Assembly: GCF_013167455.1 (NCBI RefSeq)
Contig: NZ_CP038328.1
Strand: one strand, 5' to 3'
Length of the DNA stretch: 64,000 bases
From: Escherichia coli O157:H7
GTDB taxonomy: Bacteria; Pseudomonadota; Gammaproteobacteria; Enterobacterales; Enterobacteriaceae
Position numbers: made by a program. This document shows positions 33,001-36,000 of the stretch, in pieces. Each line of letters begins with the position of its first letter. Position 1 is the stretch's first letter.

Positions 33001-36000
33001 AAGATATTTTCTTACGGCGTTCACCTGATGTGATCTACAGCATGTTATGCCTTCGTCATACAATCGTTATGTAACTAAGCAACTCATCACCTCTAAAAAT
33101 TATTCTTTGGTGTTATGGCGAGAATCGCGAACCCGGATTATTGTCAAAATATCAGCCTGACTCCCTTCTGGCTGCCAGCCCAAAAACAACACTGATAAAC
33201 GTGAATCCGAGGCAGATATGTTTCTAAACTATTTCGCGTTGGGAGTGCTGATCTTCGTCTTTCTGGTGATTTTTTATGGAATCATCGCGATACATGACAT
33301 CCCTTATCTGATTGCCAAAAAGCGCAATCACCCCCATGCCGACGCTATTCATACGGCGGGCTGGGTGAGCCTGTTTACTCTGCATGTTATCTGGCCGTTT
33401 CTGTGGATCTGGGCGACGCTCTATCAACCGGAGCGTGGCTGGGGTATGCAGTCACATGTTGCGTCGCAGGAGAAAGCGACTGACCCGGAAATCGCCTCAC
33501 TTTCTGACCGAATTTCCCGGCTGGAGCATCAACTCGCCGCCGAGAAAAAGACTGACTATTCCACGTTCCCGGAGATCTAATTATGGATCTATTGATTGTT
33601 TTAACTTACGTGGCGCTGGCGTGGGCGGTCTTTAAAATCTTCCGCATTCCGGTAAATCAGTGGACGCTGGCGACGGCGGCGCTGGGAGGCGTGTTTCTGG
33701 TGAGTGGTTTGATTTTATTGATGAACTACAACCACCCTTACACTTTTACCGCGCAAAAGGCAGTGATAGCGATCCCTATCACGCCACAGGTGACGGGAAT
33801 TGTTACTGAAGTCACTGACAAGAATAATCAGCTTATTCAAAAGGGCGAGGTGCTTTTTAAGCTCGACCCGGTTCGTTACCAGGCGCGAGTTGACAGACTT
33901 CAGGCTGACCTGATGACGGCGACGCATAATATAAAGACGCTGCGTGCGCAGCTCACTGAAGCGCAGGCCAACACCACCCAGGTTTCAGCGGAGCGCGACC
34001 GTCTGTTTAAAAATTATCAACGTTACTTGAAAGGCAGCCAGGCGGCGGTGAATCCGTTCTCGGAACGTGACATCGACGATGCGCGGCAAAATTTCCTCGC
34101 GCAGGATGCGCTGGTGAAAGGCTCGGTGGCGGAGCAGGCGCAGATCCAGAGCCAGCTCGACAGTATGGTTAACGGCGAGCAATCGCAGATTGTGAGCTTA
34201 AGAGCGCAACTTACTGAAGCAAAATATAACCTTGAGCAGACTGTCATTCGCGCGCCGAGCAATGGCTACGTTACTCAGGTACTGATCCGCCCAGGTACAT
34301 ACGCAGCTGCCTTGCCGCTGCGTCCGGTGATGGTCTTCATCCCCGAGCAAAAACGGCAAATTGTCGCCCAATTTCGGCAAAACTCGCTGTTACGTCTGAA
34401 ACCCGGCGATGATGCGGAAGTGGTGTTTAACGCGCTACCTGGGCAGGTGTTTCACGGCAAACTGACTAGTATTTTACCTGTCGTGCCAGGCGGTTCTTAT
34501 CAGGCGCAGGGGGTATTGCAATCATTAACGGTCGTGCCCGGCACGGACGGTGTGCTGGGAACCATTGAACTGGACCCTAACGATGATATCGATGCCTTAC
34601 CCGACGGCATCTACGCCCAGGTGGCGGTTTACTCCGACCATTTCAGCCATGTTTCGGTGATGCGGAAAGTGCTGCTAAGAATGACCAGCTGGATGCATTA
34701 TCTTTATTTGGATCATTGAGGGGGAGGGGGGAGATTATGGAACTTTGCTCCTTGTAAGGACTAATTATTTTTGCATATTACTTCATTAGCTGCGATGATT
34801 TTTCTTTAATATTCATTATGTTAATAAGTTCTGGATGAGTGTGCTCTCATTGGATTTTTTATCCGTCTTGTTCTGCCGCAGGATGAGACTATACATCGTC
34901 GAGATCGCAATGATGATATGAGTTGTTCCTCCTGCGACGGCTCTAATCAAAAAAGAGCAGGAGTGCTTTTCCATCTATTGCGATGATGGCTTTATTATCT
35001 GAAGGATGACAGTCACATTTAAAAAATATTTAATCTATAGATCACAATGTAGGGTCATGGAATATATGTATACAACTATTTTCTTCTTCACTTTTAATTA
35101 TCGTATTCATTATAAAACTAAGTTAAAAAACTCCTGGAGAGTGAGTTATTAATATATTTTTAAATGAAATTAAGTTATCATTCATCGATGCATTTTATAG
35201 AATCATCAATGGCCATAATAGTACTATTAACTCTCAATTTTATATTTTTATCATCACTACAAATATTAACTGAATTTATATCAATGATTTTTTTTATTCT
35301 TATCTTTTATTTTATTTACTGTTTCAATGCAATCAGCGGCAAGTTGGAGTGGATTTAGATTTTTCAGATATGGTCTTATGATCTTTCCCTTACTTAATAA
35401 ATAGCATGTATAGGATTCGGAAAGTCCAGCATCTATTTTGTATCTCATTATATTAGATAAGGATGTGAGAAATTCCTTGTTATCATTCGCAGCCATATAT
35501 GCCAGTCCGAGTTCAGCCTCTGCGGCCTTACAGGCAAAATAGCTTAGTGAACACGCTTTTCGTCCCTCTTTAGTACTGGCTGATATTAGTGCCCATAATA
35601 TTGCTTTGTCTGCCAAATCTAACTCTCTCTGAAATTGTCTTGCAGTAACTGCACTCGCAGAAATAGAGAAAAAAATACAATTGTTAATAACCTTGCCATA
35701 TTTTTTAGTCCGTAACTGTTAATGTGCTATCTGGCTCTGAAAATATTAACTCATTTAATTTTTGCATGTCATTAGATAAACCAGTTATACAACCCTCGGA
35801 ACAGAATCGAGGTCCTAAAGACGGACCAAAAGCGTTTAAACAACTATGTATTGAAAATCCATTGCGATTATAAGTTCCTGTATTAACTGACGGTACTAAT
35901 CGTATGCCGTCAGGTTTTCTATTGCTTGCTCCCGGGTCATTAACATTCCAACTCCATAGGCCTTGAGATATTGGCCATCTATTTATAAATGTGTACAACG

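What the first reader, a model, noticed from the sequence alone, without database searches (positions are those of the whole stretch)
34720..35280. AT-rich gene-poor segment distal to the rhs cassettes
About 560 bp of low-GC sequence with no convincing ORF lies between yibH and the orphan immunity gene. From memory K-12 carries yibA/yibJ/yibG-type rhs-associated remnants at the corresponding position. This looks like the eroded distal end of the rhs accessory region.
Basis: partly seen in the sequence, partly recalled or inferred. Interest (0 to 1): 0.3.

Follow-up and report, generated by a model that had tools for sequence, protein, structure and literature searches.

The report
Decayed tail of the RhsA island
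This AT-rich stretch is the worn-out far end of the E. coli RhsA toxin island, made of a dead transposase fragment, filler DNA and the cut-off tail of a broken immunity gene; the same DNA is already annotated and studied in E. coli K-12, so it is ordinary.

Summary
Window 34720-35280 has 31.6% GC against 50.5% for the window, contains the window's lowest-GC spot, and has no intact conserved ORF.

The window is E. coli O157:H7. The interval is 99% identical to K-12 MG1655 3769681-3770242, which lies between yibV and yibH and carries the annotated pseudogene yibU.

A strain with yibH directly followed by yibF shows that the RhsA island spans about 34720-41219. Its distal junction falls exactly after the yibH stop codon.

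The interval has four parts:
- **34720-34783:** 64 bp of unknown origin.
- **34784-35016 (-):** an internal fragment of an ISAs1/H-rpt transposase gene (yibU). It covers about aa 95-173 of 378 and carries frameshifts and a stop.
- **35017-35177:** a 161-bp AT-rich spacer with no paralogue.
- **35178-35280 (-):** the last 34 codons of a 173-aa Imm57 immunity gene. The gene is intact in some strains but broken here by two homopolymer slips.

Divergence between alleles is 4.5-10%, about neutral, and the short ORFs are not conserved. Rfam, RNA folding and terminator scans gave nothing.

In K-12 this spot is a published H-NS-bound "promoter island". Verdict: an already known, decaying relic of low interest.

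The parts
33583..34719 (+). yibH (HlyD-family protein), the core-genome gene that borders the island
   Evidence: 378-aa ORF. RefSeq annotates it as yibH in O157 and K-12. It differs by only 1.2% (13 synonymous changes, 1 non-synonymous) between the two island alleles.
34720..41219 (-). The whole RhsA island: rhsA 36796-41025, yibG 36323-36784, an orphan toxin fragment, the Imm57 pseudogene and the ISAs1 fragment
   Evidence: An empty-site strain (L004) has yibH-TGA, then 34 unrelated bp, then 'ccatactgatattttt...' upstream of yibF. The window has the same flanks at 34719 and at about 41220.
34720..34783 (.). 64 bp of unknown origin at the extreme end of the island; it starts with GGGGGAGGGGGG directly after the yibH stop codon
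   Evidence: No protein or DNA homology was found. Within 34720-34815 this is the most divergent sub-segment between alleles, at 10.4%.
34784..35016 (-). Internal fragment of an ISAs1-family (H-rpt) transposase gene. It equals K-12 pseudogene yibU (b4652, mapping to window 34816-35014) plus 32 more bp
   Evidence: tblastn with K-12 YhhI matches residues 96-159 at about 60% identity, split by one frameshift and holding one stop, E 3e-12 over the whole window. blastn gives 77% identity over 235 bp to yhhI nt 284-517, E 4e-47. NCBIfam NF033564 ISAs1 positions 68-131 of 314 match at E 4e-10. In strain Z142-7, PGAP annotates the same spot as 'ISAs1 family transposase, frameshifted, internal stop, missing N- and C-terminus'.
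35017..35177 (.). AT-rich spacer (about 24-30% GC) with sigma-70-like hexamers; no gene relic is recognisable
   Evidence: It has no paralogue in 5,426 E. coli genomes at blastn sensitivity and no annotation under it. RNA folds are no more stable than shuffles, with z of +1.13 and +0.25. The pair TTAACT..GATAAT sits on the minus strand at 35126-35097. An RpoD genomic-SELEX study lists those two hexamers as the promoter sequence for its yibV-to-yibU site in K-12, though with a 15-nt spacer rather than the 18 nt found here (PMC3946193).
35178..35280 (-). Last 34 codons and stop of the ancestral 173-aa Imm57 immunity gene, now out of frame
   Evidence: PGAP pseudogene at 35178-35699. Intact 173-aa proteins occur in strains CFSAN061763, B2, EC26 and P15-25. 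The tail is conserved in a 49%-identical homologue, P0037, which aligns end to end.
35281..35699 (-). Rest of the Imm57 pseudogene: the yibV-type ORF at 35281-35616, plus the signal-peptide-like N-terminus cut off by a second frameshift
   Evidence: Pfam Imm57 PF15596 scores 164 bits, E 1e-48. O157 and K-12 have an extra T in the T-run at 35288-35295 and lack one A in the A-run at 35669-35675 compared with intact alleles.
34976..35392 (.). Equivalent of the published K-12 'promoter island' 3767592_418 (yibV/yibH)
   Evidence: PMC3661553 Table 1 lists this island as H-NS-bound in all ChIP studies it compared. Its coordinates were converted with a +1977 offset, which I checked on two other islands against the current K-12 annotation. 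My own scan finds 5 sigma-70-like sites in these 418 bp against a window mean of 0.40.

Best explanation
The interval is non-functional, decaying DNA at the far end of the horizontally acquired RhsA island. It has no product of its own.

Read on the minus strand, in the direction of the rhs genes, it runs in this order:
- the C-terminal 34 codons of an orphan Imm57 immunity gene, knocked out of frame by a one-base slip in a T8/A8 run;
- 161 bp of very AT-rich filler;
- a 233-bp internal piece of an ISAs1/H-rpt transposase gene, the insertion-sequence family classically found at the distal end of Rhs elements;
- 64 bp of unidentifiable sequence that abuts the yibH stop codon.

**Shown here:** the identity of each part, the island boundary, the decay series, the roughly neutral level of divergence, and the lack of conserved ORFs or RNA structure.

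**Inferred:**
- An ISAs1 element once sat at the end of the island and was later truncated on both sides.
- Older cassettes sit furthest from rhsA and decay because nothing selects for them once their toxin partner is lost.

**Taken from the K-12 literature on DNA that is 99% identical:** the AT-rich core binds H-NS and RNA polymerase (a 'promoter island') and yields little or no full-length transcript. This is the usual silencing of foreign AT-rich DNA.
For: - **Same DNA as K-12.** The interval is 99% identical to K-12, where yibU is annotated as a pseudogene and yibV as a PF15596 (Imm57) protein.
- **Island boundary.** An empty site in strain O17_K12a places the boundary at 34719/34720.
- **Transposase fragment.** ISAs1 homology is supported. 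The in-frame stop is shared by both allele classes, so the fragment was already dead before they diverged.
- **Imm57 tail.**
- **Decay series.** Intact gene, then one frameshift (F6326-C1), then two frameshifts (K-12, O157), all by slips in homopolymer runs.
- **Near-neutral divergence.** The interval differs by 4.5-10.4% between alleles, spread evenly. yibH differs by 1.2% overall, and 13 of its 14 changes are synonymous. The alleles are mosaic.
- **Dispensable.** The interval is absent from 1,701 of 5,426 complete genomes. It is interrupted or replaced by IS1 or ISKpn26 in others (hit H69).
- **No RNA signal.** No Rfam match at E<=1, no terminator, fold z-scores between -0.2 and +1.1.
- **Published binding data for K-12.** Promoter island with H-NS binding (PMC3661553) and an RpoD SELEX site (PMC3946193).
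Against: - The sequence is kept at >=99% identity in 3,333 genomes. That could hint at constraint, but it is what recent common descent predicts, and the 322 genomes at 90-95% show free divergence.
- RNA polymerase and H-NS binding in K-12 show the DNA is not biochemically inert.
- yibV, just next door, is reported as induced 7.9-fold by AZT in K-12 (PMC11228462), so some transcription enters or leaves the region.
- No expression data for O157 were available to me.
- 225 bp (34720-34783 and 35017-35177) remain of unknown origin.
Confidence: 0.9

Rival explanations
1. The AT-rich core (about 34976-35392) is a selected regulatory element rather than mere debris. It would be an H-NS nucleation site, or 'promoter island', that keeps the orphan toxin and immunity cassettes silent. 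Alternatively it would buffer the convergent yibIH and rhs transcription units from each other.
For: - It is listed among 78 K-12 promoter islands and is H-NS-bound in all ChIP studies compared (PMC3661553).
- There is an RpoD holoenzyme SELEX site between yibV and yibU (PMC3946193).
- It has 5 sigma-70-like sites in 418 bp against a mean of 0.40, which is in the top 0.35% of the window.
- It lies exactly between two convergent transcription units.
Against: - The promoter-like density is no higher than in composition-matched shuffles: 7 sites against 5.0 +/- 2.6. AT-richness alone explains it.
- The H-NS consensus motif is not enriched over chance in the window as a whole.
- Divergence in the spacer (5.6%) is no lower than in its neighbours, and homopolymer indels accumulate there.
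- A third of complete genomes lack the region.
- H-NS binds any AT-rich foreign DNA, so binding does not show selection.
Confidence: 0.12
2. The interval hides an unannotated small protein gene or small RNA. Candidates are the 64-aa hydrophobic ORF at 35164-35358 (+), the 48-aa ORF at 35006-35152 (+), or a transcript from the SELEX promoter.
For: - ORFs of 48-64 aa exist.
- The 64-aa ORF is very hydrophobic.
- An RNA polymerase binding site is reported in K-12.
Against: - The ATG at 35164 is unique to O157; K-12 and five other strains have ATA.
- The T-run indel at 35288 and the indels at 35021 and 35124 shift both ORFs between strains.
- Hydrophobic ORFs are expected from T-rich DNA.
- Pfam gives only sub-threshold noise.
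- The K-12 RefSeq annotation includes ribosome-profiling small proteins such as YibX and YibY but lists nothing here except the yibU pseudogene.
- There is no Rfam hit and no fold stability.
Confidence: 0.03
3. The 151 bp at 35016-35166 is a miniature inverted-repeat transposable element (MITE). It would be bounded by the 19-nt inverted repeat CATTTAAAAAATATTTAAT / ATTAATATATTTTTAAATG and inserted between the transposase fragment and the immunity gene.
For: the repeat finder reports this pair at 79% complementarity. Its arms sit almost exactly at the two ends of the unexplained spacer.
Against: - A 15-of-19 inverted match occurs in 48% of first-order Markov simulations of the same 701 bp.
- The spacer has no second copy anywhere in 5,426 E. 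coli genomes, which a mobile element should have.
Confidence: 0.02

Closest known systems
E. coli K-12 MG1655 yibV-yibU-yibH interval (b4615, b4652, b3597; NC_000913.3 3769681-3770242)
   Same: It is the same locus and the same sequence: 99% identity, with one 1-bp indel and 3 substitutions inside the interval. Both Imm57 frameshifts are shared, and so is the transposase fragment.
   Different: O157 has G rather than A at 35166, which creates a strain-specific ATG, and has one A fewer in the run at about 35125-35130. Further up the island, O157 lacks the K-12 rhsA-CT/yibA module.
H-rpt / ISAs1-family elements at the distal ends of K-12 Rhs elements (for example yhhI downstream of rhsB; also ydcC, ybfD, ISEc1)
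   Same: It belongs to the same transposase family. It holds the same position relative to an rhs gene, downstream of the toxin and immunity cassettes and in the same orientation.
   Different: Only about 79 of 378 codons survive, with frameshifts and a stop, and there are no element ends. Identity to every other ISAs1 copy in E. coli is at most 77% at the DNA level, so it comes from a lineage with no intact copy in the 5,426 genomes searched.
Orphan Rhs/CDI toxin-immunity cassettes (displaced C-terminal tips with their immunity genes)
   Same: An Imm57 immunity gene lies downstream of a degraded toxin-tip fragment, beyond the active rhsA-CT/yibG pair. This is the usual layered arrangement.
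   Different: In this window the immunity gene is itself dead, with two frameshifts. It is intact in other E. coli lineages.
'Promoter islands' of E. coli K-12 (Panyukov & Ozoline 2013, PMC3661553)
   Same: The K-12 counterpart of 34976-35392 is one of the 78 listed islands. It is AT-rich, dense in promoter-like sites, H-NS-bound and associated with foreign DNA.
   Different: Nothing was measured in O157. By my scan, the promoter-like density does not exceed what the base composition predicts.

Membership tests
ISAs1-family (H-rpt) insertion sequence | Full-length DDE transposase ORF that passes the NCBIfam NF033564 cut-off of 70 bits | tested here: not met
   The reconstructed 68-aa peptide scores 39.3 bits, E 4e-10, and covers only positions 68-131 of 314. 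It matches YhhI residues 96-159 at the protein level and about 95-173 at the DNA level, out of 378. It is a homologous fragment, not a member gene.
ISAs1-family (H-rpt) insertion sequence | Terminal inverted repeats and target-site duplication bounding the element | tested here: not met
   The only inverted repeats found are AT-rich matches at chance level. No homology to the ends of the K-12 H-rpt element was found.
ISAs1-family (H-rpt) insertion sequence | Significant sequence homology to family transposases | tested here: met
   tblastn E 3e-12 in O157 and E 3e-23 in the divergent allele. blastn gives 77% identity over 235 bp, E 4e-47. PGAP labels the same spot as ISAs1 in strain Z142-7.
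Imm57 immunity protein (Pfam PF15596) | Domain match above the Pfam gathering score | tested here: met
   164 bits against a cut-off of 25 for the ORF at 35281-35616. That domain lies just outside the finding; only the C-terminal extension at 35178-35280 is inside it.
Imm57 immunity protein (Pfam PF15596) | Intact reading frame of the full 173-aa protein, including N-terminal signal-like segment and C-terminal tail | tested here: not met
   There are two frameshifts relative to the intact alleles WP_000197506.1 and WP_001096403.1. The tail is homologous to that of P0037.
Rhs accessory (orphan cassette) region | Lies within the DNA block that is present or absent together with the rhs gene, downstream of it | tested here: met
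   The empty site in L004 places the junctions at 34719/34720 and about 41219/41220.
Promoter island (Panyukov & Ozoline) | Unusually high density of promoter-like sites over 300 bp or more | tested here: inconclusive
   There are 5 sites in 418 bp against a window mean of 0.40. However, a scan of 34500-35800 finds 7 sites against 5.0 +/- 2.6 in composition-matched shuffles. The authors' own predictor, PlatProm, was not available.
Promoter island (Panyukov & Ozoline) | In vivo occupancy by RNA polymerase and H-NS with little full-length transcription | not testable with these tools
   This is reported for the 99%-identical K-12 sequence (PMC3661553; PMC3946193). No data exist for this strain.
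Known structured RNA families (Rfam 15) | Covariance-model match | tested here: not met
   No match at E<=1 in 32500-37500 on either strand.

The most novel reading that the evidence does not exclude
The relic may have been co-opted. In this reading, the H-NS/RNA-polymerase-binding AT-rich core acts as a silencer or insulator that sets the expression of the orphan rhs cassettes. Alternatively, through the minus-strand promoter-like site at 35126-35097, it drives transcription antisense into the 3' end of yibH and so couples yibIH expression to H-NS status.
Probability: 0.07. Interest if true: 0.3.

Novelty: already known. Interest (0 to 1): 0.07.

Why it matters
It matters little beyond tidy annotation. 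The analysis fixes the exact distal junction of the RhsA island, one base after the yibH stop codon. It extends the yibU transposase relic by 32 bp. It shows that K-12 'yibV' is a doubly frameshifted remnant of a 173-aa Imm57 gene that is still intact in other E. coli lineages. It also gives a clean small example of how displaced Rhs cassettes and their flanking insertion sequence decay by slips in homopolymer runs. If the co-option reading were true, it would add one case to the debate on whether 'promoter islands' are selected or merely a by-product of AT-rich foreign DNA.

Tried and rejected
- **Rfam scan** of 32500-37500 at E<=1: nothing.
- **Intrinsic terminator scan** for the convergent yibH and rhs units: 0 sites found.
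- **RNA folding** of four sub-segments on both strands: z-scores of -0.22, +1.13, +0.02 and +0.25, so no structure signal.
- **Pfam and NCBIfam** on the 48-aa and 64-aa ORFs: only sub-threshold noise.
- **H-NS high-affinity motif** TCGATAAATT with up to 2 mismatches: 71 hits against 67.7 expected in the window. The four hits in the interval are explained by its composition, so the test is uninformative.
- **MITE idea** from the 19-nt inverted repeat at the spacer ends: rejected, because the match is at chance level and there are no other copies.
- **Direct repeat** of 21 nt at 34810 and 35104 (81% identical), and a 1.9-copy tandem repeat at 35292-35315: treated as AT-rich chance matches.
- **Search for a close intact progenitor** of the ISAs1 fragment in E. 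coli: none above 77% identity outside this locus.
- **Protein homology for 34720-34783 and 35017-35177:** none found.
- **Literature:** searches for yibU, yibV and yibH found only genome-scale tables and no dedicated study.
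Full report
**What the sequence is**

The window is E. coli O157:H7. Bases 34600-35400 match strain ECP19-598 at 100%, and some part of the query is found in 5,404 of 5,426 complete E. coli genomes. The ORF table shows yibI (33218-33580), yibH (33583-34719, 378 aa), a 111-aa minus-strand ORF at 35281-35616, and rhsA at 36796-41025 on the minus strand.

**Observation check**

The interval has 31.6% GC against 50.5% for the window. That is the lowest 0.9% of all 561-bp windows, and the lowest-GC 561-bp window of the whole 64 kb starts at 34941, at 27.6%. No ORF longer than 64 aa touches it.

**Comparison with K-12**

The interval and its flanks align to K-12 MG1655 at 99% identity, with one 1-bp indel and a handful of substitutions. 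In K-12 the stretch runs yibV (b4615, 'PF15596 family protein', 111 aa), then pseudogene yibU (b4652, 199 bp), then yibH.

Those genes lie nearer to rhsA. The genes at the corresponding position are yibU and the end of yibV. By the alignment, yibU maps to window 34816-35014 on the minus strand.

**Where the island ends**

Strain O17_K12a has yibH followed after 70 bp by yibF, with no rhs DNA. Its sequence reads '...ttggatcattga' + 'gacttatatcacctgtgttttgcgtgagcctgag' + 'ccatactgatatttttcctcgc...ATG(yibF)'. The window has the same left flank ending at 34719 and the same right flank starting at about 41220.

The RhsA island is therefore 34720 to about 41219, and it replaces 34 bp of the empty site. 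The finding is its last 561 bp.

**The transposase relic**

Minus-strand translations contain 'KAIIAIDGKAL' and 'HIIIAISTMYSLILRQNKTDKKSNESTLIQNLL'. Several lines of evidence identify these as part of an ISAs1-family transposase.

- A reconstructed 68-aa peptide hits NCBIfam NF033564 (ISAs1 family transposase), positions 68-131 of 314, at E 4e-10. That is below the 70-bit full-length cut-off, as expected for a fragment.
- tblastn with K-12 YhhI, the H-rpt transposase downstream of rhsB, matches window 35014-34822. This covers YhhI residues 96-159 at about 60% identity, in two frames and with one in-frame stop. E is 3e-12 across the whole 64-kb window, and there is no other significant hit.
- At the DNA level the match is longer: 34784-35016 aligns to yhhI nt 284-517 at 77% identity, E 4e-47.
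- In strain Z142-7, PGAP labels this very spot 'ISAs1 family transposase; frameshifted; internal stop; missing N-terminus and C-terminus'.
- All other ISAs1 copies in E. coli genomes (ISEc1, ydcC, ybfD, yhhI) are at most 77% identical to it, so it is an old fragment of a lineage with no intact copy there.
- In the divergent allele, residues 96-159 are still in a single frame but carry the same in-frame stop. The gene was therefore already dead before the alleles separated.

ISAs1/H-rpt elements at the far end of Rhs elements are a classical feature. K-12 rhsB-yhhH-yrhC-yhhI shows it directly, and the link is also mentioned in PMC3032704.

**The immunity-gene tail**

PGAP annotates a frameshifted Imm57 pseudogene at window 35178-35699 in O157. 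Strains CFSAN061763, B2 (swine), EC26 and P15-25 carry an intact 173-aa Imm57 protein at the same place.

Alignment of seven alleles shows that O157 and K-12 have one extra T in the T-run at 35288-35295 and lack one A in the A-run at 35669-35675. Strain F6326-C1 has only the second lesion. That gives a decay series: intact, then one frameshift, then two frameshifts, all by slips in homopolymer runs.

The 34-codon tail encoded by 35178-35280 is real protein sequence. A 49%-identical, 175-aa homologue from another organism (P0037) aligns end to end, including '...KCIDK'. The Pfam Imm57 domain itself lies in 35281-35616, at 164 bits. The right-hand 103 bp of the finding is therefore former coding sequence.

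**What remains unexplained**

Two pieces have no detectable homology: 34720-34783 (64 bp) and 35017-35177 (161 bp). The spacer has no second copy in any of the 5,426 genomes at blastn sensitivity. A 19-nt inverted repeat sits at its two ends, but this is a chance-level match, since 48% of simulations give one as good.

**Tests for a hidden function**

- Rfam gives nothing at E<=1 over 32500-37500.
- No intrinsic terminator is predicted.
- RNA folds of four sub-segments are no more stable than shuffles.
- The three short ORFs are not conserved. The ATG at 35164 is specific to O157, and indels at 34931, 35021, 35124 and 35288 shift the frames between strains.
- Between the two allele classes, yibH differs by 1.2% (13 synonymous changes and 1 non-synonymous). 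The sub-segments of the interval differ by 10.4%, 4.5%, 5.6% and 8.7%, with no conserved block.
- Some strains are mosaics, with a switch of allele type between 34897 and 34931.
- The interval is present in 3,725 of 5,426 complete genomes, nearly always as a single copy at this locus (at most two places in any genome). Of those, 3,333 are at >=99% identity and 322 at 90-95%. It is absent from the rest, and in some genomes it is interrupted or replaced by IS1 or ISKpn26 (hit H69).

All of this fits neutral decay.

**What is already published on this DNA**

Panyukov & Ozoline list '3767592_418 yibV(+)/yibH(-)' among 78 'promoter islands' of K-12. It overlaps a predicted genomic island and is bound by H-NS in all the ChIP studies they compared. 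They report that such islands bind RNA polymerase but give only short oligonucleotides (PMC3661553).

Their coordinates are in the older U00096.2 numbering. An offset of +1977 places two other islands from their table correctly against the current annotation: waaC/waaL and insH11/slp. The same offset puts this island at 3769569-3769986, which corresponds to window 34976-35392.

A genomic-SELEX study of RpoD holoenzyme lists a site between yibV and yibU with the hexamers TTAACT and GATAAT (PMC3946193). The same hexamers sit on the minus strand at 35126-35097, although I count an 18-nt spacer and the paper says 15.

My own count gives 5 sigma-70-like sites in 418 bp against a window mean of 0.40. 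Composition-matched shuffles give about as many, so AT-richness suffices to explain the density. yibV appears in an RcdA SELEX table and in a list of AZT-induced genes. The K-12 RefSeq annotation, which does include ribosome-profiling small proteins such as YibX and YibY, has no gene in the interval other than yibU.

**Conclusion**

The finding is real but ordinary and already known. It is the decayed distal tail of the RhsA island. Its parts are an out-of-frame Imm57 C-terminus, AT-rich filler that is a documented H-NS-bound promoter island in K-12, a truncated ISAs1/H-rpt transposase relic (yibU), and 64 bp of unknown origin abutting yibH.

The K-12 gene names were wrong, and the two relics were not recognised. 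The only mildly open question is whether the H-NS/RNA-polymerase-binding core has any selected role, and I rate that as unlikely.

Noticed in passing
window 36796-37765, compared with K-12 3765913-3767197: O157 rhsA is fused directly to the C-terminal tip that K-12 carries as the orphan yibJ, followed by yibG. K-12 has an extra module of about 1.28 kb (its own rhsA tip plus yibA) that O157 lacks. The two BLAST segments overlap by 470 bp in the window, over the repeated core end.
   Followed up: partly
window 35705-35998 (-) and 35617-35699 (-): The degraded orphan toxin ORF upstream of Imm57 gives a weak, sub-threshold Tlde1-domain hit at E 0.007. The intact Imm57 starts with a signal-peptide-like MTRLLTIVLFFSISANA. 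Together these hint at a toxin-immunity pair that acted in the periplasm.
   Followed up: partly
window 34897-34931, and seven-strain alignment: Strains B2 (swine) and F6326-C1 carry the 'divergent' allele up to about 34897 and the K-12-type allele from about 34931 onward. A recombination breakpoint therefore lies inside the transposase relic.
   Followed up: partly
L003 (strain VTB97420v) 9171-9868; L005 (O78 strain 3) 9148-10128: In other strains an IS1A or an ISKpn26 sits right at the yibH 3' end. The insertion comes with inversion or deletion of the neighbouring rhs/selAB region, or with truncation of the rhs gene and of the last codons of yibH.
   Followed up: no
L008 5268-13170 (Logan SRR31736489 contig): A 49%-identical Imm57 homologue sits in a run of small genes with immunity-type domains (a second weak Imm57, Rap1a, MafI2, DUF7668). 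The run lies between housekeeping genes with no toxin gene called nearby, so it looks like an orphan immunity-gene array.
   Followed up: no
window about 27460-28070: A second AT-rich spot (GC 0.39-0.41) ties for the highest density of sigma-70-like sites in the window. By mapping to the O157 annotation, it is the intergenic region between the DUF3251 lipoprotein gene and yibL.
   Followed up: no
window 36796-41025: rhsA is an intact 1409-aa ORF in this window. In strain ECP19-598, which is 100% identical over 34600-35400, PGAP marks the RHS core gene as frameshifted. The window therefore comes from a different O157 isolate, or that assembly has an indel.
   Followed up: no
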